A stretch of DNA of 35,274 bases from a virus (IMGVR_UViG_2897352509_000012); one strand, 5' to 3'. Counted from the stretch's first letter, positions 1,533 through 27,525 are shown. Notes: generated from the letters alone by a model not told the origin. Made by a program: numbers and translations.

Positions 1533-1596
1533 GATATCTAATTGCATGAAATAAAAGGATTTATTTCTGGTCACGTCCACACATTGACCACATCGA
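1507..1596. repeat. Left attachment junction; imperfect direct repeat of the right junction
   Basis: Shares AAT, T6 run, TGCAT, CTGGTCAC and TTGACCACATCGA blocks (1567..1596) with 33457..33530. Confidence 0.5.
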
Positions 1597-8297: not shown

Positions 8298-8891
8298 CTA
8301 TTTGTCCCGGTTGGCTAAGGGCTGACACAATTTATTTTTTGTCACTGAGGCGGGGAATTTTTTATAGAGCGTGGACAGGCCAATATCAAAAATCAGTGCC
8401 ACGCGTTGACGTGATTCCCCTGCAGCCAGCAACCGCCCGGCCTGCTCCCACTCACTCGCGGTGAGTTTCGGACGTCTGCCACCAATACGACCTTTGGCTC
8501 TGGCCGCCTCCAGTCCGGCGCGTGTCCGCTCGACAATGAGTTCTCGTTCCATTTCAGCCAGGGCACCCATCACATGAAAGAAAAAACGCCCCATCGGCGT
8601 GCTGGTATCAATAGCATCCGTCAGGCTGCGAAAATTAATGCCGCGTTCGCGCAGTTCCTCAACCAGAATGACCAGATGCCGCATACTACGCCCCAGCCTG
8701 TCCAGCTTCCAGACTACCAGAGTGTCACCTGCTGATAATGTTCTGAGCAGTTTTTTTAGTCCCGGTCGGTCGGACTTCGTGCCGCTGATTTTATCCTCAA
8801 AAATCAGCTCACATCCTGCGCACTCCAGCGCGTTACGCTGCAATTCCGTGTTCTGGTCATTTGTTGATACACGAACATAACCTATACGCAT
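8298..8891 (-). CDS. Serine recombinase, Hin/Gin/Pin/Cin-family DNA invertase
   Basis: MRIGYVRVSTNDQNTELQ with catalytic Ser in YVRVSTxxQ, resolvase fold and C-terminal HTH; start taken at MRIGY. Confidence 0.85.
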   Translation of the reverse strand: MRIGYVRVSTNDQNTELQRNALECAGCELIFEDKISGTKSDRPGLKKLLRTLSAGDTLVVWKLDRLGRSMRHLVILVEELRERGINFRSLTDAIDTSTPMGRFFFHVMGALAEMERELIVERTRAGLEAARAKGRIGGRRPKLTASEWEQAGRLLAAGESRQRVALIFDIGLSTLYKKFPASVTKNKLCQPLANRDK

Positions 8892-8915
8892 AAAAATCCC
8901 TATAAAAACAGAATA

Positions 8916-9452
8916 ATGACACATCTTTCAACATCATATTTAACCGATTTCATAAACGTTGGTTTGGGAGAAGGCTCTGCATTACCTGTTGGTGTGCCTG
9001 TTCCATGGCCTTCAGCCACACCGCCAACAGGCTGGCTGAAATGCAACGGTGCGGCATTTTCTGCTGAAGAATACCCGGAACTGGCAAAGGCTTATCCAAC
9101 AAATAAATTACCTGATTTACGCGGTGAGTTTATTCGTGGCTGGGATGACGGGCGCGGTATTGATGCAGGACGTGTTTTATTGAGTATTCAGGCCGGAATG
9201 CTGGAAAAGCATAACCACTATTGGGGAATCTGGACTTCACGAACTAACGACCAGACTCTGGAAAGTTTTACAGGCACCACGATTTTAAAACAAATCACGC
9301 CCCTGTCTCCGGCCATTAACTTCGATAATTACCCAATTCCCAACCCGGCTATTACAGAGGGTGGTGTTGTTGCGGCAACGACTAAACCTGCAGGTGCGAA
9401 TGAAACACGCCCACGAAATGTCGCTTTTAACTATATTGTGAGGGCTGCATAA
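8916..9452 (+). CDS. Alternative tail-fibre C-terminal variable segment, silent in this orientation
   Basis: ORF crosses the crossover site at ...NVGLGEG...; sequence after the site is the alternative C-terminus; the ATG at 8916 is probably not a real start. Confidence 0.55.
   Translation: MTHLSTSYLTDFINVGLGEGSALPVGVPVPWPSATPPTGWLKCNGAAFSAEEYPELAKAYPTNKLPDLRGEFIRGWDDGRGIDAGRVLLSIQAGMLEKHNHYWGIWTSRTNDQTLESFTGTTILKQITPLSPAINFDNYPIPNPAITEGGVVAATTKPAGANETRPRNVAFNYIVRAA
8948..8973. repeat. Inversion crossover site (left), hix/gix-like
   Basis: TTCATAAACGTT-GGTTTGGGAGAAGG; inverted partner at 10849..10876; shared TGGTTTGGGAGAAG half-site with AA/TT centre. Confidence 0.6.
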
Positions 9453-10054
9453 TGAATAACGCAGAATTAAACAGTGAATTAATTGCCACTATGGCAGGAG
9501 AAATTACTGTTTATAACTTTGATGTTGAAACACTGGAATATATTTCCACGTCAACTGAATATCTTGCAGTGGGTGTCGGTATTCCAGCATATTCCTGTTT
9601 AGACGCTCCTGGTACATCTAAGGCTGGTTATACAATTTGCCGTTCTGTGGATTTAAAATCATGGGAATATGTGTCAGACCATCGCGGTGAAATCGTCTAT
9701 AACACCGAAACGGGAGATGCCAAAGAAATCACAGCACTAGGCGACTATCCCGAAAATACAACCACTATCGCCCCTTTATCTCCATACGATAAATGGGATG
9801 GTGAGAAATGGGTGACCGATACTGAGGCACAGCATAGCGCCGCAGTCGAAGCGGCAGAAGCACAACGCCAGTCACTGATTGATGCTGCAATGGCTTCCAT
9901 TAGTCTGATTCAGCTGAAATTACAAGCCGGACGGAAACTGACGCAGGCAGAAACAACCCGACTTAACGCTGTGCTGGATTACATTGACGCGGTGACGGCA
10001 ACAGATACCAGCACCGCGCCGGATGTCATCTGGCCTGAACTGCCGGAGGCGTAG
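9452..10054 (+). CDS. Tail fibre assembly chaperone (alternative set)
   Basis: 200-aa ORF directly after the alternative fibre segment; C-terminus (...LDYIDAVTATDTSTAPDVIWPELP) resembles that of the adjacent assembly protein (...LDYLDALELVDTSSAPDIEWPTPP). Confidence 0.7.
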   Translation: MNNAELNSELIATMAGEITVYNFDVETLEYISTSTEYLAVGVGIPAYSCLDAPGTSKAGYTICRSVDLKSWEYVSDHRGEIVYNTETGDAKEITALGDYPENTTTIAPLSPYDKWDGEKWVTDTEAQHSAAVEAAEAQRQSLIDAAMASISLIQLKLQAGRKLTQAETTRLNAVLDYIDAVTATDTSTAPDVIWPELPEA

Positions 10055-10478
10055 GCCATTCAATATCTGGCGCACTGGAGGTATCAACCAGTTCCAGTGC
10101 GTCCAGATAATCCAGCCACAAATTATATTGCGCCAGTTCCTCACCTTTCAGACGACCAATAGCGGCTTTACCGGGCCATTGCTTACTGTTCATGTATTCG
10201 TTGGCCTGGTTAATTAGTAGCTGTCTTTCTGATTCAGTAATTTCAATAAGTTCTTCATGCGTGGGTGGAGGAATCTCTGCCCACGCAGGCAGCCCATCAT
10301 CTCCGGCAATACGGATTTTTCCTTGTGGCGGTTCAGCCATAAACTCACTGATAATATTTTGATTTACTTCCTTAGCGTCTGATAAATCCCATCCCTCTGA
10401 TTTATATTTATCAATCATATCCACAGGGAAAAAAGCATTATGCCTTGCGCTATAAACATATTCGTTCATATAAATCAC
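10026..10478 (-). CDS. G: Tail fibre assembly chaperone (G-like, active set)
   Basis: 150-aa ORF directly downstream of H on the same strand; 3' end overlaps convergent assembly gene. Confidence 0.75.
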   Translation of the reverse strand: MIYMNEYVYSARHNAFFPVDMIDKYKSEGWDLSDAKEVNQNIISEFMAEPPQGKIRIAGDDGLPAWAEIPPPTHEELIEITESERQLLINQANEYMNSKQWPGKAAIGRLKGEELAQYNLWLDYLDALELVDTSSAPDIEWPTPPAVQAR

Positions 10479-10489
10479 CCTGAATAAAA

Positions 10490-11689
10490 TTACTCACCAA
10501 CAGCCCACCAACTGTAATTCATCGATACCGTGTCGCTGGTTGATGACGTTCTGTAAGCAGAATTAAAGCCGGTTAACGTTGGGCCTTCTGCAGTCATCAC
10601 GAACCCTCGCCCAGCGCCTAAAGGCGCACCGCCATCACCAGAATGAGTAAGCATGGCGCAGTCCGCTTTTTTGGGGAAAGGGATGCTGAATGTAATTCTC
10701 ATTGTTTGCGTCGATAATGTCGGCGTAACCGCACCACGACCATATTGCAGGATTTTCCCGTTGGGTAATTTCATCCATCCATCACCACTGGCAAAAGAGG
10801 CCATGTCCGGTATCTGATTTTCCCCTGTCCCCACATCCCGTTTTGCCGCTTCTCCCAAACCAAGGTATGCGAGAAGACCAGCAACATCCTTTCCACTCAA
10901 ATTAGTAAGCGTATTGTCCAGCGGTTGTTTGCCTGCCAGCGCATTGTTAATGGTGGTGCTGAATTTCGGGTCATTGTTAATGGCTGCGGCAATTTCTTTC
11001 AGTGTGTCCAGCGTGGCTGGCGCACCGTTAATCAGAGCGGTAATAGCGGCCTGAACAAACTCAGTGGTCGCAATCCGCGAGGTGTTATTTCCTGCGGCAG
11101 GCGTCGGCGCTTTTGGTTCTCCGGTAAATGTCGGATTATGTTTCTGCGCATACTGGGTATGAGGATCCTGTGCGGCAATGTGGTTTCTCATCTGGTCATC
11201 CACATACAGCCTTAATTCCAGGACTTCATCATCCACGTATTTACGGGTCGCCAGTACCACCGACGGGTCGATTTTCAGCGTGATGGCTTCGGTATTCGTG
11301 ACAACCAGAATCATGCGGATAGTCTGGGTGCGTCCGCTGCCTTCCTGCAACTGCGGTTTGTACGTTTCCGGGCAGTTTGCCACCGCAATGAGTACACCTT
11401 CATCATCATAAAGACCAATCTCACGGATCCAGAACCCTCCCTCGTTTTCAGGGATGATTTGCTCCGCAATAATCTGGCTCTGATTGTTCGGGTCAACACT
11501 CAGAAGATTCAGCGGTGCAATGCGTTTCTGGTTAATCAGTATTGTCTGTGCCGGGTCTGGTGTCGGCAAGACACCATTCGCATCACCAACGGCCATTTGC
11601 GTCAGATTCAGCTTACTGCCGAGCATCGTCGCGTTAGCCAGCCGTGCTGCGCCCTGATTAGTCAGAATGGCGTAGTATTTCACTGTCAT
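10490..11689 (-). CDS. H: Tail fibre protein H; constant N-terminus (about 10863..11689) fused to variable C-terminus (10490..10862)
   Basis: N-terminus MTVKYYAILTNQGAARLANA recognised as P2 gpH-like; crossover site inside ORF at ...AYLGLGEAA... Confidence 0.85.
   Translation of the reverse strand: MTVKYYAILTNQGAARLANATMLGSKLNLTQMAVGDANGVLPTPDPAQTILINQKRIAPLNLLSVDPNNQSQIIAEQIIPENEGGFWIREIGLYDDEGVLIAVANCPETYKPQLQEGSGRTQTIRMILVVTNTEAITLKIDPSVVLATRKYVDDEVLELRLYVDDQMRNHIAAQDPHTQYAQKHNPTFTGEPKAPTPAAGNNTSRIATTEFVQAAITALINGAPATLDTLKEIAAAINNDPKFSTTINNALAGKQPLDNTLTNLSGKDVAGLLAYLGLGEAAKRDVGTGENQIPDMASFASGDGWMKLPNGKILQYGRGAVTPTLSTQTMRITFSIPFPKKADCAMLTHSGDGGAPLGAGRGFVMTAEGPTLTGFNSAYRTSSTSDTVSMNYSWWAVGE
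10849..10876. repeat. Inversion crossover site (right), hix/gix-like, inside H
   Basis: CTTCTCCCAAACC-AA-GGTATGCGAGAAG, inverted relative to 8948..8973. Confidence 0.6.
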
Positions 11690-20622: not shown

Positions 20623-22395
20623 ATGACCATCACCACAGACACCACTCTTTTACACGACCCGCGTCGTCAGGCGGCGCTGCTGTACTGGCAGGGGTTTTCC
20701 GTGCCGCAGATTGCCTCCATGTTGCAGATGAAACGCCCGACGGTGCAGAGCTGGAAACAGCGCGACGCCTGGGACAGCGTTGCCCCCATCAGCCGTGTCG
20801 AAATGAGTCTGGAAGCGCGGCTGACCCAGCTCATCATCAAACCGCAGAAAACCGGCGGGGACTTCAAGGAAATTGACCTGCTGGGACGCCAGATTGAACG
20901 ACTGGCACGGGTCAACCGTTACAGCCAGACCGGCAACGAGGCAGACCTTAATCCGAACATCGCTAACCGCAACAAAGGCGGGCGTCGCAAACCGAAAAAG
21001 AATTTTTTCAGTGACGAGGCCATCGAAAAGCTGGAGCAGATTTTCTTTGAGCAGTCTTTCGAATATCAGTTGCACTGGTATCGCGCCGGGCTTGAGCACC
21101 GCATCCGCGATATCCTGAAATCCCGCCAGATTGGCGCGACGTTTTATTTTTCCCGCGAGGCGCTGCTGCGCGCCCTGAAAACCGGTCATAACCAGATTTT
21201 TCTGTCGGCCAGTAAAACGCAGGCGTATGTGTTCCGCGAATACATCATCGCCTTTGCCCGGCTGGTTGACGTTGACCTGACCGGTGACCCGATTGTCCTG
21301 GGCAATAACGGCGCAAAACTGATTTTTCTCGGCACCAACTCCAACACCGCACAGAGCCATAACGGCGACCTGTACGTCGACGAGATTTTCTGGATCCCGA
21401 ATTTTCAGGTACTGCGTAAGGTGGCATCAGGTATGGCCTCACAGAGTCACCTGCGCTCGACCTATTTCTCCACCCCGTCCACGCTGGCGCACGACGCCTA
21501 CCCGTTCTGGTCGGGTGAACTGTTTAACCGGGGACGCGCCAGCGCCGCTGAACGCGTGGAAATCGACGTCAGTCATAACGCCCTTGCCGGTGGGCTTCTC
21601 TGTGCGGACGGCCAGTGGCGGCAGATTGTCACCATTGAGGACGCCCTGAAAGGCGGCTGCACGCTGTTCGACATTGAGCAGCTCAAACGCGAAAACAGCG
21701 CCGACGATTTTAAAAACCTGTTCATGTGTGAATTTGTTGACGACAAGGCGTCGGTGTTCCCGTTCGAGGAGCTGCAACGCTGCATGGTCGACACGCTGGA
21801 AGAATGGGAAGACTATGCGCCGTTTGCCGCCAATCCGTTCGGCTCACGTCCGGTATGGATTGGTTACGACCCGTCACACCGTGGCGACAGCGCCGGATGC
21901 GTGGTGCTGGCACCGCCGGTGGTGGCCGGTGGCAAATTCAGGATCCTTGAGCGTCACCAGTGGAAAGGCATGGACTTTGCCACCCAGGCAGAATCCATCC
22001 GCAAACTCACCGAAAAATACAACGTCGAATACATCGGTATTGATGCCACCGGCCTCGGTGTCGGCGTGTTCCAGCTCGTGCGCTCGTTCTATCCCGCCGC
22101 GCGCGATATCCGCTACACACCGGAAATGAAAACCGCAATGGTGCTCAAGGCAAAAGACGTTATCCGCCGTGGCTGTCTGGAATACGACGTCAGCGCCACC
22201 GACATCACCAGCTCGTTTATGGCTATCCGCAAGACCATGACCAGCAGCGGGCGCAGCGCCACCTATGAGGCCAGCCGCAGCGAGGAAGCCAGCCACGCCG
22301 ACCTCGCCTGGGCGACCATGCACGCCCTGTTAAATGAGCCACTCACCGCCGGTATCAGCACCCCGCTGACATCCACCATTCTGGAGTTTTACTGA
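20623..22395 (+). CDS. P: Terminase ATPase (large) subunit P, 590 aa
   Basis: MTITTDTTLLHDPRRQAALLYWQGFSVPQIA...; start at internal Met gives P2 gpP length. Confidence 0.9.
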   Translation: MTITTDTTLLHDPRRQAALLYWQGFSVPQIASMLQMKRPTVQSWKQRDAWDSVAPISRVEMSLEARLTQLIIKPQKTGGDFKEIDLLGRQIERLARVNRYSQTGNEADLNPNIANRNKGGRRKPKKNFFSDEAIEKLEQIFFEQSFEYQLHWYRAGLEHRIRDILKSRQIGATFYFSREALLRALKTGHNQIFLSASKTQAYVFREYIIAFARLVDVDLTGDPIVLGNNGAKLIFLGTNSNTAQSHNGDLYVDEIFWIPNFQVLRKVASGMASQSHLRSTYFSTPSTLAHDAYPFWSGELFNRGRASAAERVEIDVSHNALAGGLLCADGQWRQIVTIEDALKGGCTLFDIEQLKRENSADDFKNLFMCEFVDDKASVFPFEELQRCMVDTLEEWEDYAPFAANPFGSRPVWIGYDPSHRGDSAGCVVLAPPVVAGGKFRILERHQWKGMDFATQAESIRKLTEKYNVEYIGIDATGLGVGVFQLVRSFYPAARDIRYTPEMKTAMVLKAKDVIRRGCLEYDVSATDITSSFMAIRKTMTSSGRSATYEASRSEEASHADLAWATMHALLNEPLTAGISTPLTSTILEFY

Positions 22396-23429
22396 TGAGC
22401 AAGAAAAAAGGGAAAACACCGCAACCTGCGGCAAAAAAAATGACCGCCAGCGCCCCGAAAATGGAGGCATTCACCTTTGGTGAGCCGGTGCCGGTACTCG
22501 ACCGCCGTGACATTCTGGATTACGTCGAATGCATCAGTAACGGCAGATGGTATGAGCCACCAATCAGCTTTACCGGTCTGGCAAAAAGCCTGCGTGCTGC
22601 CGTGCATCACAGCTCACCGATTTACGTTAAACGCAATATTCTGGCCTCGACATTTATCCCGCATCCGTGGCTTTCCCAGCAGGATTTCAGCCGCTTTGTG
22701 CTGGATTTTCTGGTGTTCGGTAATGCGTTTCTGGAAAAGCGCTACAGCACCACCGGTAAGGTCATCAGACTGGAAACCTCACCGGCAAAATATACCCGCC
22801 GTGGTGTTGAGGAGGATGTTTACTGGTGGGTGCCGTCCTTCAACGAGCCGACACCTTTCGCGCCCGGCTCCGTGTTTCACCTGCTGGAGCCGGATATTAA
22901 TCAGGAGCTGTACGGCCTGCCGGAATATCTCAGCGCCCTTAACTCTGCCTGGCTGAATGAATCGGCCACGCTGTTCCGCCGCAAGTATTACGAAAACGGC
23001 GCTCATGCCGGATATATCATGTACGTCACTGATGCCGTGCAGGATCGCAACGATATCGAAATGCTCCGCGAAAACATGGTGAAGTCGAAAGGCCGCAACA
23101 ACTTTAAAAACCTGTTTCTCTACGCCCCACAGGGAAAAGCCGACGGTATTAAAATTATCCCGCTCAGTGAAGTGGCAACGAAGGACGATTTTTTTAATAT
23201 CAAAAAAGCCAGCGCCGCAGACCTGCTGGACGCGCACCGCATCCCCTTTCAGTTGATGGGCGGCAAGCCGGAGAACGTCGGGTCGCTGGGTGATATTGAG
23301 AAAGTGGCAAAGGTCTTTGTCCGCAATGAGCTTATCCCGTTACAGGACAGGATCCGCGAGATAAACGGCTGGCTCGGTCAGGAGGTCATCCGCTTTAAAA
23401 ACTACTCACTGGACACTGACAACGGCTGA
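22395..23429 (+). CDS. Q: Portal protein Q, 344 aa
   Basis: Length/synteny match to P2 gpQ; ATGA overlap with P stop. Confidence 0.9.
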   Translation: MSKKKGKTPQPAAKKMTASAPKMEAFTFGEPVPVLDRRDILDYVECISNGRWYEPPISFTGLAKSLRAAVHHSSPIYVKRNILASTFIPHPWLSQQDFSRFVLDFLVFGNAFLEKRYSTTGKVIRLETSPAKYTRRGVEEDVYWWVPSFNEPTPFAPGSVFHLLEPDINQELYGLPEYLSALNSAWLNESATLFRRKYYENGAHAGYIMYVTDAVQDRNDIEMLRENMVKSKGRNNFKNLFLYAPQGKADGIKIIPLSEVATKDDFFNIKKASAADLLDAHRIPFQLMGGKPENVGSLGDIEKVAKVFVRNELIPLQDRIREINGWLGQEVIRFKNYSLDTDNG

Positions 23430-23434
23430 ACATC

Positions 23435-23456
23435 GCCGCCTGCGGGCGGCTTTTTT
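23435..23456 (+). terminator. Rho-independent terminator after Q
   Basis: GCCGCC-TGCG-GGCGGC hairpin followed by TTTTTT, 6 nt after Q stop. Confidence 0.6.
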
Positions 23457-23598
23457 ACACCCCGTCATCACGCCCTCACACGCTCACCACCGCGCAAAAC
23501 AGCCCGCAGACAAACCAACGCCCCGGCGCACAATCTAAACGCCATCACGACGCGCTCAGACGCTGAAAAAATAAAATCAGCACCACCGCCAGCGCGCA

Positions 23599-23617
23599 GT
23601 GCTTTCCCCGCCTCGCC
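23599..23617. other. cos cohesive-end site
   Basis: GTGCTTTCCCCGCCTCGCC is the reverse complement of the P2 19-nt cohesive end GGCGAGGCGGGGAAAGCAC as I remember it; lies beside Q as in P2. Confidence 0.7.
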
Positions 23618-23746
23618 CGCCCGCTTCGTGGGGCGGTTTTAATGCAGATGCATTATGAGCCCTGAGCTGCGCCTAACGTGACACAGCTTCACTAAATAGA
23701 CTCATTATCCACATGCAATCTAATTCAAAAAAATGCATGTATAGTA

Positions 23747-25717
23747 TTAAAGGTCATCAATTAAACCTAAAGGCAAACCGTCCTCACCAACCGAGCTATA
23801 ATGAGCGATAATATTCGAAAGTTCACCAGTAGAAAACGAATTAGGCAAATCATTATCAACTAATATAATCTGGCACGGAACATTTTTTCTTTCTGCTTTT
23901 TGAACTGTATTCAATAGTTGTTCATAAATATTTTGATACTTCATCGGATCTGACATTCCCTCAAGGTCATCCTCGAATGCAAGAGTTTCTTTTGAATATT
24001 TTTCCTTGGTCTGTTTCCCTAAATATTTGCCAACCGTATCAAATATCAAAAGTAAAGGATGGTTAACATTATGATCTATTGCATAATCAAGAATAGACAA
24101 AAGATACCCAATAGAAGAAATAGTTCTCAAACCTCCGGATGTTATTTTAAAATATTCTTTTTCTCTTATAACAGGAATGTAATAGCTTTCAGAGATTTTT
24201 ATCCCCGTTCTGTTTTTGATATTAATACTCTTCAAATACTGACTAAATCTATCACCCAAACCTTGTAAAATGCCCTCCATGCTAGGTGCGTTTTTCTTTA
24301 ACGCCTCCAAGCGTTCAGTTAATGCTTCAATATCTTTTCTCAGTACCTGATACTTTTCAAGCAGTTCCTCTTGCTGGTTTCTAACCTTCAAATCTTTTAC
24401 TAACTGCTCCCTAACCTTCTCATTTTTTGAGATCTCTTTAATATAAAAATCTCTCTGAGTCAAGAATGGTGTAATCATTGACTGGCTTTCTTCGTCAATC
24501 AATTCTCTCAACTCGTCAAGTCGTTCATCTAATTCCTTTTTATAACCTGATTCTTTTTTTAATTTAAATGACATTTCTGAGATCATGTCATTAATATTTC
24601 GTCTACGTCGACTAAGTGAATTCAACTCTTCATTAAGATCTTTTTCTGATGAAATTTCAAATGGAAAATCAGAATCATCTATTTTAATGTGGCTATCACA
24701 GACTGGACAGGAAAATACTTCCTTATCCAATACACCAATGCGAGAATTTGCTGTTTTAATCGCTTTGAGTTTTTCAATATCATTATCATAGTCATTTTTT
24801 AACCGCGAATATTTATCAATCTTATCCTCAAGCGCAGTAATATTTAATATGCACTCTTTGTATTTAAGCGAAATAAAATTGTGAGCATCTTTCAATTCTG
24901 TATACTGTATGGAATCCGCTTTCATATTTTTATCGAGAGCAGACAAACCTGCAACAAGTTCTTCTAAAACAAGATCTATCCTATTAATCTCATCATCAAT
25001 TGATTCAATCGTTTCATAGTCTGTATCGCGAAGAAATTCAGATATTATCTGATACTTCCTATTTAATTCCGTTACTAAACTACTTTTTGCAGATATTTCA
25101 CCTTGGAGTCTGGCGATGCTTTCATCCAACACATTGAACATGTATTTAAAAACTTCTTTCGTAAATGCGTAGCGGGACCAATCACCCAATCGCAAGAAAG
25201 ATTTACTACCAATATCATCCTGACTTACATAAACAAATTTATATATATTTCTAAAACTTAACCTGCGCATCTGTGAATGAGCTTTAGAAGGAGACACCTT
25301 AATTTCAATCTTTGGAAAATTAAGACTATCAAGTAAAAACTCCGAAAAAACACCATCAACATTTGATAATGGGCTATAATTAGGAGCGTATTTTTTCGGA
25401 AAATGTTTATGTAAATCATCAAACTTACAACGATAAACTTCTATTGCTTTTTTATGATCATAGATATCTCTTACGATTGTGAATACAGTATCATTGATCA
25501 CTACTTCAAGAGCAGCATAGTTTACTGATGTTTTTATTTCATCTGCTAAATCTATAGAGCTAGCACCTAAAAGATAATTAATAAACTCCAGAATGCTTGA
25601 CTTACCTGTGTCAGAGTCTCCGTAGATAACATTGAGACCTTTATAAAAAGTAGTGACGTAGTTTTTACGAACGCCAACAAGAATCAAACTATTGATATTG
25701 AGATATGATTTCATCAT
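23747..25717 (-). CDS. SMC/Rad50-like ABC ATPase with coiled coil and CxxC zinc hook (cargo gene 3)
   Basis: Walker A GDSDTGKS (res 33-40), heptad-rich middle with CPVC (res 337-340), signature TSGGL (526-530), Walker B LLLIFD (555-560). Confidence 0.75.
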   Translation of the reverse strand: MMKSYLNINSLILVGVRKNYVTTFYKGLNVIYGDSDTGKSSILEFINYLLGASSIDLADEIKTSVNYAALEVVINDTVFTIVRDIYDHKKAIEVYRCKFDDLHKHFPKKYAPNYSPLSNVDGVFSEFLLDSLNFPKIEIKVSPSKAHSQMRRLSFRNIYKFVYVSQDDIGSKSFLRLGDWSRYAFTKEVFKYMFNVLDESIARLQGEISAKSSLVTELNRKYQIISEFLRDTDYETIESIDDEINRIDLVLEELVAGLSALDKNMKADSIQYTELKDAHNFISLKYKECILNITALEDKIDKYSRLKNDYDNDIEKLKAIKTANSRIGVLDKEVFSCPVCDSHIKIDDSDFPFEISSEKDLNEELNSLSRRRRNINDMISEMSFKLKKESGYKKELDERLDELRELIDEESQSMITPFLTQRDFYIKEISKNEKVREQLVKDLKVRNQQEELLEKYQVLRKDIEALTERLEALKKNAPSMEGILQGLGDRFSQYLKSINIKNRTGIKISESYYIPVIREKEYFKITSGGLRTISSIGYLLSILDYAIDHNVNHPLLLIFDTVGKYLGKQTKEKYSKETLAFEDDLEGMSDPMKYQNIYEQLLNTVQKAERKNVPCQIILVDNDLPNSFSTGELSNIIAHYSSVGEDGLPLGLIDDL

Positions 25718-26226
25718 TTCTCCTTGAAGACTTGATTTATAACAGAGTTTAACTTAGAGGTAGGCAATGCTTGTAGCGGTAACAATGCTTCGGATAGTCG
25801 TTTTATTTCTTTAAAATATCCATCAGTCAATGAGCTAGCAAATTCCTTACCTTTTTCAGATAAAAATAATTTAACACTCTCATTATTTTTTTTCTCAGCT
25901 GAGAGCAATCCCCGCAATGACATAATTTTTATAAGATATTTCACTTTGGAATTGTCGAATAAGATATCTACATTTGTTGAAAAACTCTTTATTGTATAAG
26001 TTAACTGGGACTCGACACAAGCAGGCTTTTTCCCCGAAACTGTAAGAGCATAATCAATTTTTGATGGGTTTTTTATCAGATACATAAAAATTTGTATTTT
26101 ATTAATATCTAATGATAACACTCCTTTTTTGCTATGAGATAATATAGATATAGCAATGGCAAGCATAGCAAAATTCAAGCTATACTCTTCATCAAGAGGA
26201 ATATACGGCAAGTTATTTTTCTTCAT
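25714..26226 (-). CDS. Small protein of unknown function, 170 aa (cargo gene 2)
   Basis: ORF overlaps both neighbours (14 nt and ATGA overlap), same AT-rich composition; no recognisable motifs. Confidence 0.6.
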   Translation of the reverse strand: MKKNNLPYIPLDEEYSLNFAMLAIAISILSHSKKGVLSLDINKIQIFMYLIKNPSKIDYALTVSGKKPACVESQLTYTIKSFSTNVDILFDNSKVKYLIKIMSLRGLLSAEKKNNESVKLFLSEKGKEFASSLTDGYFKEIKRLSEALLPLQALPTSKLNSVINQVFKEK

Positions 26227-27436
26227 GATTACCTCGCCGTAATTGCTCCAAAGTTTCTACGCTGGTTTCAGATGACCAGACAATATCCCTGTCATTTTTG
26301 TTAGCCAGTTGATGCAACATTCCTTTCTTATGTATCGTTTCTAAACTTTTTATAAGAGAATCTAACGACGACTTATCCTCTTGGGCTATTCGTCTATGAA
26401 CAGCAGCAATAAATTTATCTGGGGAAATTGAATTCGCGATATATTGCTCATACTCTTCCTGGTAAATCTCCCTTATTTTAGAATACAAATGACCAAGTAG
26501 TTTCCTATCGTAATCACTCGTAAAAATATTTCTCGCAAGCTCAGCATTATAATAATATTCCTTTGCATGCATAGCGATATCCTGATGTATATCTGCGACA
26601 ATCATTTTTAAGACGAAATACTCATTATCATATTGTTTCTCATCAGAAAAACGCTCAACACATATCTTCTTGGGTGCTTCTAAATTTATCTGCTGAATAA
26701 ATTGCTTTACCGCAACAAACACTGTAGACGAGCTGTTTTCGGGCTTGCAAATTGAGCTATGCCCTTCATTAACTGCAATTGAGTTATTTCGTTCACTATC
26801 CATCGGTAATGCGCTTTTTTTATCAACTATAGTGTCATGAGAACCATAAACATATCTAGTGATAGGAAGTTTTTTGCTACAATTTATCCAGCGCCTATTC
26901 AACGTATCGGTCGCTTCACTTAACAATCCAAGATCTACTAACTGAGCATTTGAAGATACCATTGAAGTTATATTCGCCAATTTAGCACCAAAGTGAGGGA
27001 CTGCTAACGAAATGAATCCAATTATATTAGATTGTTCCTCATGCTCAACTTTTTTTAGAATTAGATTTTTTGATATTACCCCCCCCATACTATGGGCGAT
27101 TATTATAATTCGAGAGTAATCACTTAGCGTTACCCTAATCTCAGTATACAATAACTCAGCTATTTCATCAGTTGGTAAATTTCTCTCTAACTTATTTTTC
27201 TTAGAGAAAATACGAGCCCATAATCCTGACGTTTTAGCATACGTTTGTGTAAATTTGGTGAAATAATTGAAACATGCAATATCAAATACATTGCCAATGT
27301 CTTCATCTTCTGCTAATAGTTTTGGAAATGAAGTTTCTTTATTAAAGTTCCATGTTTCCAAACCACCATTTAATCCATGTACAAATAGTATCAGGCTATC
27401 TTTTTTCTCGTGGCTTATCCATTCAACCATGCTCAT
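26213..27436 (-). CDS. Lipase-like alpha/beta hydrolase fused to C-terminal helical domain, 407 aa (cargo gene 1)
   Basis: HG oxyanion motif (LILFVHGLNGG), AHSMG nucleophile pentapeptide (Ser116), downstream GSHDT (Asp201) and EGHSS (His226); C-terminal about 160 aa helical, Tyr/Glu-rich. Confidence 0.75.
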   Translation of the reverse strand: MSMVEWISHEKKDSLILFVHGLNGGLETWNFNKETSFPKLLAEDEDIGNVFDIACFNYFTKFTQTYAKTSGLWARIFSKKNKLERNLPTDEIAELLYTEIRVTLSDYSRIIIIAHSMGGVISKNLILKKVEHEEQSNIIGFISLAVPHFGAKLANITSMVSSNAQLVDLGLLSEATDTLNRRWINCSKKLPITRYVYGSHDTIVDKKSALPMDSERNNSIAVNEGHSSICKPENSSSTVFVAVKQFIQQINLEAPKKICVERFSDEKQYDNEYFVLKMIVADIHQDIAMHAKEYYYNAELARNIFTSDYDRKLLGHLYSKIREIYQEEYEQYIANSISPDKFIAAVHRRIAQEDKSSLDSLIKSLETIHKKGMLHQLANKNDRDIVWSSETSVETLEQLRRGNHEEK

Positions 27437-27525
27437 ATGCTTTTCTGCCGTGTATAAAAATTAAACTATAACAAACAATTCCTCAACAATAACATATTGT
27501 TACCCCGTTTGACCGTTTTTTTCAA
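27437..27525 (-). promoter_or_regulatory. AT-rich putative promoter region upstream of the cargo cassette
   Basis: Minus strand shows TTGTTG ... TTTAAT-like hexamers; assignment by eye only. Confidence 0.3.

What the first reader, a model, noticed from the sequence alone, without database searches (positions are those of the whole stretch)
25714..26226. Orphan 170-aa middle component with no recognisable motifs
Translationally coupled to both neighbours (overlaps of 14 nt and 4 nt), so almost certainly co-expressed, yet it has no catalytic or nucleotide-binding motifs. In known three-component ABC systems the small middle protein bridges ATPase and effector; this one could be a divergent member.
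Basis: inference. Interest (0 to 1): 0.45.

Follow-up and report, generated by a model that had tools for sequence, protein, structure and literature searches.

The report
LmuC subunit of prophage Lamassu defence
The 170-residue "orphan" is an already named protein, the small middle subunit (LmuC, Pfam family MC4) of a three-gene Lamassu anti-phage defence cassette carried as cargo by a P2-like prophage of E. coli O157:H7, so it is an ordinary find.

Summary
The ORF at 25714-26226 (- strand, 170 aa) is real. It is not an orphan. It matches Pfam PF20290 (ABC-3C middle component 4) at 95 bits against a cut-off of 28, and a PADLOC LmuC model at E 1.5e-52. RefSeq already names the identical protein.

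The upstream gene is LmuA, an alpha/beta-hydrolase (lipase-like) effector with an ABC-3C CTD8 domain. The downstream gene is LmuB, a short Rad50/SMC-like ATPase with a CxxC zinc hook. The three form a type II "short" Lamassu system. It sits on a 32% GC island in the known gpA-gpQ defence hotspot of a P2-like prophage.

The gene order A-C-B is kept in every homologous cassette I examined, in unrelated genomic contexts.

By analogy with those structures, LmuC probably sits centrally in an LmuA1-LmuB2-LmuC1 complex, helps hold the effector inactive and contacts DNA.

The parts
25714..26226 (-). lmuC: 170-aa middle component (ABC-3C MC4 type), a basic, winged-helix-like single-domain protein
26213..27436 (-). 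lmuA: 407-aa effector with an N-terminal alpha/beta-hydrolase (DUF676/PGAP1 lipase-like) domain and a C-terminal ABC-3C CTD8 domain
   Evidence: PADLOC LmuA E 3.5e-108. Pfam DUF676 (residues 10-156) and CTD8 at 122.5 bits (residues 265-389). HG oxyanion motif, AHS116MGG nucleophile elbow, D201 and H226 are invariant in six homologues.
23747..25717 (-). lmuB: 656-aa short Rad50/SMC-like ABC ATPase (the sensor) with a zinc hook
   Evidence: PADLOC LmuB E 1.5e-235, full length. Walker A GDSDTGK39S, CxxC at 337-340, signature SGG at 527, and a deviant Walker B LLIFD-T, all conserved in homologues. Weak sub-threshold matches to SMC and Rad50 models across the central region, residues about 195-520, where the coiled coil is expected.
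27437..27525 (-). 89-nt intergenic region upstream of lmuA, the presumed promoter region of the cassette
   Evidence: One promoter-like site, TTGAAA-18-AACAAT, at 27525..27496 (-), 9 of 12 matches. The region as a whole has no more such sites than shuffled sequence, so this is only a candidate.
23430..23746 (.). Spacer between the lmuB stop and the portal-gene stop. It holds GC-rich hairpins and the phage cos site and marks the edge of the cargo island.
   Evidence: Terminator-like hairpins at 23435-23450 and 23617-23636. Exact P2-type cos 19-mer at 23599-23617. GC rises from about 32% to about 55% here.
22395..23429 (+). Flank: P2-family portal gene (gpQ), one border of the defence hotspot
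   Evidence: RefSeq 'phage portal protein'. About 97% identical in P2-like phages that carry other cargo at this position.
27526..29850 (-). Flank: P2-family replication endonuclease (gpA), the other border of the hotspot
   Evidence: RefSeq 'replication endonuclease'. The flank is conserved in P2-like phages. The hotspot between GpA and GpQ is described in PMC13586616.

Best explanation
The ORF encodes LmuC, the middle subunit of a type II 'short' Lamassu (ABC-3C) anti-phage system, subtype MC4. Its partners are a lipase-like LmuA effector with a CTD8 domain and a zinc-hook LmuB ATPase.

Shown here:
- family membership of all three genes;
- tight operon coupling;
- conservation of the three-gene module;
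- location in the gpA-gpQ cargo hotspot of a P2-like prophage;
- a predicted winged-helix-like fold resembling solved LmuC subunits.

Inferred by analogy with the solved V. cholerae and Salmonella complexes and the mutational work on an E. coli lipase Lamassu:
- one LmuC binds an asymmetric LmuB dimer near the hook-proximal coiled coils and one head;
- it packs against the LmuA C-terminal domain, so the effector is held monomeric and inactive;
- its basic surface helps LmuB grip dsDNA ends or replication intermediates of an invading phage;
- sensing plus ATP turnover then releases LmuA, which self-associates through its CTD and switches on the hydrolase. The hydrolase probably attacks membrane lipids and aborts the infection.
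For: Family membership: PADLOC calls the three ORFs LmuA, LmuC and LmuB at E 3.5e-108, 1.5e-52 and 1.5e-235. Pfam gives MC4 at 95.3 bits and CTD8 at 122.5 bits, both far above their cut-offs. RefSeq gives the same names.

Module conservation: the order A-C-B, with overlapping or abutting genes, is kept in an ICE-like context (L002-L005), in another island (L006-L008), and in Scandinavium, Pseudomonas entomophila and Halopseudomonas loci found through LmuB alone. The three proteins diverge in step, at 46-55%, 41-48% and 48-53% identity.

Catalytic and ATPase motifs are intact and invariant.

The protein is basic (pI 9.5), with conserved K43, K52, K66 and K96. K96 lies in the predicted recognition helix.

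Mechanism from the literature: A1B2C1 stoichiometry; a central LmuC that contacts LmuB, the LmuA CTD and dsDNA; LmuC interface and DNA-binding mutants that abolish defence; an E. coli lipase Lamassu with a zinc hook that protects against Lambda-vir, in which seven of nine mutations at the four modelled interfaces (A-B, B-C, A-C and DNA-Lamassu) abolish activity. Sources: PMC12663957; bioRxiv 10.1101/2025.03.14.643221; bioRxiv 10.1101/2025.06.23.660979.
Against: No structure or experiment exists for an MC4-type LmuC that I could tie to this sequence. The solved LmuCs are MC3 type with CTD7 partners, share only 10-13% identity, and give no sequence-level match.

The published Ec-Lipase system uses different residue numbers (LmuB K42, LmuA H215) from ours (K39, H226). 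It is therefore a relative at best, and I could not obtain its sequence.

Complex formation, DNA binding, the lipase substrate and defence activity were not tested here. The monomer model is weak at residues 1-8 and about 64-90.
Confidence: 0.88

Rival explanations
1. The protein is a stand-alone MarR/PadR-type winged-helix transcription factor that represses the cassette's own promoter. On this view it is an autoregulator or antitoxin-like repressor and not a structural subunit of the defence complex.
Against: There is no significant sequence match to any transcription-factor family in Pfam or NCBIfam. MarR hits align over only 80-94 residues, against 128 for solved LmuC. The gene is always the middle gene of the A-C-B module and co-diverges with both partners. 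In solved systems LmuC is a stoichiometric subunit, and its protein-interface mutants abolish defence (PMC12663957). The published work itself notes that LmuC models 'repeatedly hit HTH-type transcription factors', so the fold resemblance is expected for a true LmuC.
Confidence: 0.05
2. The protein acts like a kleisin or like the SbcD/Mre11 C-terminal region. It would bridge the two ATPase heads of LmuB, as accessory subunits do in canonical SMC and Rad50 complexes, and dock the effector there.
For: LmuB is Rad50/SMC-like. Kleisins are built from winged-helix domains (general knowledge). 'Long' LmuC (MC1) resembles the SbcD/Mre11 C-terminal region and is predicted to sit at the heads (PMC12663957 and bioRxiv 10.1101/2025.03.14.643221).
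Against: This LmuB is short (656 aa) and the LmuC is MC4, which belongs to the diverged short sub-family (MC2-MC8, CTD6-CTD12). Solved short complexes place LmuC at the hook-proximal coiled coils plus a single head, explicitly unlike kleisins. No kleisin, SbcD or Mre11 family matches at E <= 1.
Confidence: 0.05
3. The ORF is a spurious or decaying reading frame between two real genes, with no function of its own.
For: None beyond its small size and the AT-rich sequence, in which long chance ORFs are less rare.
Against: There are full-length homologues down to 42% identity with 25 invariant residues. A profile search finds 135 clusters at 50% identity; most are about 165-190 aa and the shorter ones look like fragments. 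The protein passes a curated Pfam family threshold. Its position is conserved. It gives a confident fold prediction.
Confidence: 0.01

Closest known systems
LmuC (DdmB) of V. cholerae Lamassu Vc-Cap4 (PDB 9ny5) and LmuC of the Salmonella enterica Lamassu (PDB 9hqx)
   Different: It belongs to a different middle-component family: MC4 here, MC3 for the V. cholerae protein. Identity is only 10-13% and no sequence-level match is detectable. The partner CTD is CTD8, not CTD7. The effector is an alpha/beta hydrolase, not a Cap4 nuclease. This LmuB has a CxxC zinc hook, which Vc LmuB lacks.
Lamassu Ec-Lipase (E. coli short Lamassu, clade H; PMC12663957)
   Same: It has a lipase-type LmuA effector, a zinc-hook LmuB, three genes and an E. 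coli origin. The system was shown to defend against Lambda-vir, and defence depends on the catalytic His, on Walker A and on the modelled A-B, B-C, A-C and DNA interfaces.
   Different: Identity with the window cassette could not be established. The published residue numbers (LmuB K42, LmuA H215) do not fit ours (K39, H226). The sequence and supplement were not available.
ABC-3C systems (Krishnan, Burroughs, Aravind et al. 2020, as cited), Pfam PF20290 MC4 and PF20284 CTD8
   Same: The ORF is a direct member of these curated families and has the defining three-gene architecture.
   Different: Nothing material. The classification is computational and assigns no mechanism to MC4.
MarR/PadR winged-helix transcription factors
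   Different: There is no significant sequence-family match. Extra N- and C-terminal helices and conserved motifs (LPYIPLDEE; TYTIKSxSxNVDILF) are absent from those families. The protein is always encoded inside a Lamassu operon.

Membership tests
Pfam PF20290, ABC-3C middle component 4 (MC4) | Whole-protein score above the curated gathering threshold, with near-complete profile coverage | tested here: met
   95.3 bits against a cut-off of 28.1, E 5e-27, profile positions 1-132 of 133. All 44 database homologues with a precomputed Pfam entry carry PF20290.
Pfam PF20290, ABC-3C middle component 4 (MC4) | Encoded as the middle gene, between an effector with an ABC-3C C-terminal domain and an ABC ATPase | tested here: met
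   In the window: LmuA with CTD8 (PF20284, 122.5 bits), then MC4, then the ATPase. The arrangement is the same in L002-L011.
Lamassu type II, short form (LmuA-LmuC-LmuB) | LmuB is an SMC/Rad50-like ABC ATPase with Walker A Gx4GK[ST], a signature motif and the short-type Walker B hhhhD[Q/S/T/E] | tested here: met
   PADLOC LmuB E 1.5e-235. Motifs: GDSDTGKS at 33-40, SGG at 527, LLIFD-T at 556-561, all conserved in homologues. The motif definition comes from PMC12663957.
Lamassu type II, short form (LmuA-LmuC-LmuB) | Short LmuB (about 600-660 aa), optionally with a CxxC zinc hook in the middle of the coiled coil | tested here: met
   656 aa, with CPVC at 337-340, conserved as CP[VI]C in homologues.
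Lamassu type II, short form (LmuA-LmuC-LmuB) | LmuA is an N-terminal effector domain joined to a helical C-terminal oligomerisation/docking domain | tested here: met
   PADLOC LmuA E 3.5e-108. DUF676/PGAP1 hydrolase at residues 10-208 and CTD8 at 265-389. The Ser116-Asp201-His226 triad is invariant.
Lamassu type II, short form (LmuA-LmuC-LmuB) | The LmuC fold resembles experimentally solved LmuC | tested here: met
Lamassu type II, short form (LmuA-LmuC-LmuB) | Assembly into an LmuA1-LmuB2-LmuC1 complex with LmuC contacting LmuB, the LmuA CTD and dsDNA | not testable with these tools
   Only single-chain prediction was available. This needs a multimer prediction, pull-downs or cryo-EM.
Lamassu type II, short form (LmuA-LmuC-LmuB) | Confers phage (or plasmid) defence that depends on all three genes | not testable with these tools
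   This is experimental. A related E. coli lipase Lamassu was validated in PMC12663957, but identity with this cassette is not established.
MarR/PadR-type transcription factors | Significant match to a MarR, PadR or other HTH regulator sequence family | tested here: not met
   No such family matches at E <= 1 in Pfam or at E <= 0.001 in NCBIfam. The best PDB profile matches have E 0.55-1.9.
Kleisin / SbcD-Mre11 C-terminal type SMC accessory subunits | Sequence or domain match to kleisin families or to the SbcD/Mre11 C-terminal region, as seen for long (MC1) LmuC | tested here: not met

The most novel reading that the evidence does not exclude
MC4-type LmuC, together with CTD8 and a zinc-hook LmuB, might build a complex that differs in a meaningful way from the solved MC3/CTD7 nuclease systems. 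For example, its two most conserved motifs (LPYIPLDEE at 6-14 and TYTIKSxSxNVDILF at 76-90) are disordered in the monomer model. They could form a distinct latch that couples DNA sensing to release of a membrane-targeting lipase, or they could set a different trigger specificity. That would give the first mechanistic view of how a DNA sensor fires a non-nuclease Lamassu effector from a prophage.
Probability: 0.12. Interest if true: 0.4.

Novelty: already known. Interest (0 to 1): 0.12.

Why it matters
It matters mainly for annotation. The window carries a complete, apparently intact Lamassu-lipase defence system as moron cargo of a P2-like prophage, present in 95 of 5,426 complete E. coli genomes and mostly in O157:H7 among the records listed. 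The system may shape the phage and plasmid susceptibility of these pathogens.

The middle gene is not a mystery. Its family, its operon logic and, for sister subtypes, its structure and its requirement for defence are published.

Two questions remain open. There is no experimental structure of an MC4/CTD8 complex that I could tie to this sequence. The substrate and activation mode of the lipase-type effector are also unknown. This cassette would be a reasonable model for both, but the finding itself adds nothing unexpected.

Tried and rejected
- Sequence searches of all three proteins against PDB chains found nothing.
- A profile of 28 LmuC homologues against PDB gave only insignificant histone, ScoC and MarR matches. 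The link to solved LmuC therefore rests on fold comparison alone.
- NCBIfam has no model that matches LmuC.
- tblastn of LmuC against 50,697 phage records found no match, so no deposited phage genome in that collection carries it.
- I tried to decide whether the published 'Ec-Lipase' Lamassu is this cassette. No supplement is held, and the main text gives no accession. The residue numbers differ from ours, so I treat it as a relative only.
- The scan of GTDB genomes with LmuB returned only 3 loci, because a single-protein query reaches close relatives only. They were still useful as an independent test of LmuC presence.
- The promoter scan of the cassette found no more sites than shuffled sequence, so no promoter is claimed.
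- The H-NS preprint seen could not be opened.
- Rejected readings: a MarR-type autoregulator, a kleisin or SbcD-like head bridge, and a spurious ORF. Reasons are given under the rival explanations.

Full report
**1. Observation**

The ORF at 25714..26226 on the minus strand (ATG start, 170 aa) is present exactly as described. The upstream ORF, 26213..27436 (-, 407 aa), ends 14 nt inside it; the shared bases are ATGAAGAAAAATAA. The downstream ORF, 23747..25717 (-, 656 aa), begins on an ATGA stop/start junction, a 4-nt overlap. GAGG and AAGGAG Shine-Dalgarno-like motifs precede the two internal starts. These three genes have about 32% G+C, inside a window that is otherwise about 55%. The protein does lack catalytic or nucleotide-binding motifs.

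**2. What it is**

The label 'orphan with no recognisable motifs' does not hold up.
- PADLOC calls the three ORFs LmuA (E 3.5e-108), LmuC (E 1.5e-52, 167 of 168 profile positions) and LmuB (E 1.5e-235).
- Pfam places the 170-aa protein in PF20290, 'ABC-three component system middle component 4' (MC4), at 95.3 bits against a gathering score of 28.1.
- Pfam also finds, in the 407-aa protein, an N-terminal DUF676/PGAP1 alpha/beta-hydrolase domain and PF20284, the ABC-3C C-terminal domain 8 (CTD8), at 122.5 bits.
- The cassette is 100% identical to E. coli O157:H7 EC4115. It occurs at >=95% identity in 95 of 5,426 complete E. coli genomes, always on the chromosome. RefSeq already annotates the ORF as 'ABC-three component system middle component 4' (WP_000739990.1).

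Motifs in the partner proteins:
- LmuB has Walker A GDSDTGK39S, a CPVC zinc hook at 337-340, an SGG signature at 527 and a deviant Walker B, LLIFD-T.
- LmuA has the HG oxyanion motif, the AHS116MGG nucleophile elbow, D201 and H226.
- All of these are invariant in five homologous cassettes.
- The Walker B form and the optional zinc hook match the published definition of 'short' Lamassu (PMC12663957).

**3. Context**

The cassette lies between the P2-family portal gene (22395..23429, +) and the replication endonuclease gpA (27526..29850, -). This is the main defence hotspot described for P2-like phages (PMC13586616).

P2-like phages in GenBank match both flanks at about 97% identity. Between them they carry other cargo: ParaMORC3 plus Dcm, a VbhT-like Fic protein, DUF4238, DUF4209, and a 3'-5' exoribonuclease. 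None of the 50,697 phage records encodes this LmuC.

**4.

- A word-indexed search found 45 homologues down to 42% identity. The 44 with a precomputed Pfam entry all carry PF20290.
- An alignment of 28 of them has 25 invariant columns.
- A profile search of 1.84 billion cluster representatives found only 135 clusters. Most are about 165-190 aa and the shorter ones look like fragments, so this is a small, self-contained family.
- Two distant homologues were looked up in their contigs. They sit between a DUF676+CTD8 protein and an ATPase of about 658 aa. One is in an ICE-like context (TraG, CcdAB, ArdC) and the other in an unrelated island. The genes overlap by 4 to 7 nt or lie 2 nt apart.
- Three further loci were found through LmuB alone (Scandinavium, Pseudomonas entomophila, Halopseudomonas pelagia). 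All have an LmuC homologue between LmuA and LmuB.
- The three proteins diverge in parallel: A 46-55%, C 41-48%, B 48-53% identity.

The ORF is therefore an integral, co-evolving part of the module.

**5. Structure**

AlphaFold2 with the 28-sequence alignment gives mean pLDDT 81.9 and pTM 0.79. The model is mostly helical, with a beta hairpin at 108-122 that follows a helix at 92-104, which is a winged-helix arrangement.

- The remaining top hits are MarR/PadR winged-helix regulators, aligned over only about 80-94 residues.

Foldseek gave only weak MarR hits, with E of 0.03 or above. Sequence and profile searches of PDB gave nothing significant. This agrees with the published remark that LmuC models 'repeatedly hit HTH-type transcription factors' (PMC12663957).

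The solved V. cholerae LmuC is MC3 type with a CTD7 partner. Ours is MC4 with CTD8, so I found no experimental structure of this subtype among the PDB searches.

**6. How it most likely works**

This section is inference by analogy; I mark what is shown elsewhere. In the solved short Lamassu complexes:
- the stoichiometry is LmuA1-LmuB2-LmuC1;
- LmuC sits centrally and contacts the hook-proximal coiled coils of both LmuB protomers, one LmuB head and the LmuA C-terminal domain, so the effector stays monomeric and sequestered;
- LmuC also contacts the dsDNA backbone while LmuB caps the DNA end;
- mutations in the LmuC interface and in its DNA-binding residues abolish defence;
- on activation, LmuA is released and oligomerises through its CTD.

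Sources are PMC12663957 and bioRxiv 10.1101/2025.03.14.643221 and 10.1101/2025.06.23.660979. An E. coli lipase-type Lamassu with a zinc hook defends against Lambda-vir. That defence requires the catalytic His and Walker A, and seven of nine mutations at the four modelled interfaces (A-B, B-C, A-C and DNA-Lamassu) abolish activity.

Features of the window protein fit this role:
- it is basic (pI 9.5);
- K43, K52, K66 and K96 are conserved across 134 family members, and K96 lies in the predicted recognition helix;
- it has a conserved acidic N-terminal motif (D12, E14).

Its two most conserved motifs, LPYIPLDEE (6-14) and TYTIKSxSxNVDILF (76-90), fall wholly or partly in the least confident parts of the monomer model. 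That pattern is what one expects of segments that order only on binding partners, but this is my inference.

The effector is predicted to be a serine hydrolase of the lipase/esterase kind. Membrane lipids as the substrate is a guess.

**7. Rivals**

- *MarR-type autoregulator.* The fold resemblance and one database name (P0004) suggest it. Against it: there is no regulator-family sequence match, the alignment to LmuC is longer, the gene has an obligatory middle-gene position, and the literature shows LmuC is a stoichiometric subunit.
- *Kleisin or SbcD C-terminal-like head bridge.* This applies to long (MC1) Lamassu, not to short systems like this one.
- *Spurious ORF.* Conservation excludes it.

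**8. Comparison and novelty**

The protein meets every membership feature I could test for Pfam MC4 and for short type II Lamassu. Complex formation and defence activity could not be tested.

It works like, and belongs to the same system family as, V. cholerae DdmB/LmuC, but in a different middle-component subfamily.

I could not show that the published Ec-Lipase system is this cassette. The published residue numbers (K42, H215) differ from ours (K39, H226), and the supplement is not held.

The family, the name and the operon logic are all in public databases, and the mechanism of sister subtypes is published. The finding is therefore already known, and interest is low. The most novel reading my evidence does not exclude is that MC4/CTD8/lipase complexes differ mechanistically from the solved nuclease systems.

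**9. Verdict**

- Confidence is 0.88 that this is a functional LmuC acting as the central, DNA-contacting, effector-sequestering subunit.
- Interest is 0.12.

Noticed in passing
window 23599-23617 (-): There is an exact copy of the 19-nt P2-type cohesive-end sequence GGCGAGGCGGGGAAAGCAC. The sequence is recalled from memory; none is expected by chance in shuffles. The Lamassu cassette therefore sits directly next to cos, at one end of the packaged genome.
   Followed up: partly
window 8298-10478: A serine invertase gene (Resolvase + HTH_7, 8298-8924, -) lies beside oppositely oriented ORFs for a tail-fibre C-terminus (Collar domain) and for tail-fibre assembly (Caudo_TAP). These sit next to the tail-fibre gene at 10490-11689. 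It looks like an invertible host-range segment of the Mu G / P1 C type. The inverted repeats were not mapped.
   Followed up: partly
window 1582-1596 and 33526-33540: A 15-bp exact direct repeat, CATTGACCACATCGA, lies just inside the host genes that flank the prophage: a U32 peptidase gene at 1-1362 and a YegS-like lipid kinase gene at 34375-35274. It is a candidate att core marking the prophage ends.
   Followed up: partly
window 23700-27500: The cassette has about 32% G+C, against about 55% for the rest of the prophage. This points to recent acquisition from a low-GC source. It would also make the cassette a plausible H-NS target; a 2026 preprint abstract listed reports H-NS silencing of AT-rich immunity loci, but that paper could not be opened.
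   Followed up: no
P2-like phage records H16-H27, region equivalent to window 23430-27525: Other P2-like phages share the gpQ and gpA flanks at about 97% identity but carry different cargo between them (ParaMORC3 + Dcm, a VbhT-like Fic protein, DUF4238, DUF4209, a ParB-N protein, a 3'-5' exoribonuclease). This illustrates cargo swapping at the hotspot.
   Followed up: partly
window 25957-26211 (LmuC residues 6-14 and 76-90): The two most conserved LmuC motifs (LPYIPLDEE and TYTIKSxSxNVDILF) fall wholly or partly in the lowest-confidence segments of the AlphaFold monomer model. They may be partner-binding segments. No multimer model could be run.
   Followed up: no
window 33652-34029 (-) and 30884-31390 (-): Two ORFs, of 125 aa and 168 aa, have no Pfam or PADLOC match. 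The first lies outside the candidate att repeat, on the host side. The second lies in the P2 early region and is annotated as hypothetical in RefSeq.
   Followed up: partly
window 25712-25717 (-): lmuB begins with two consecutive ATG codons (MMK...). Homologous LmuB proteins align from residue 2, so the second ATG (1-nt overlap with the lmuC stop instead of 4 nt) may be the true start. That would shift the Walker A lysine numbering by one.
   Followed up: no
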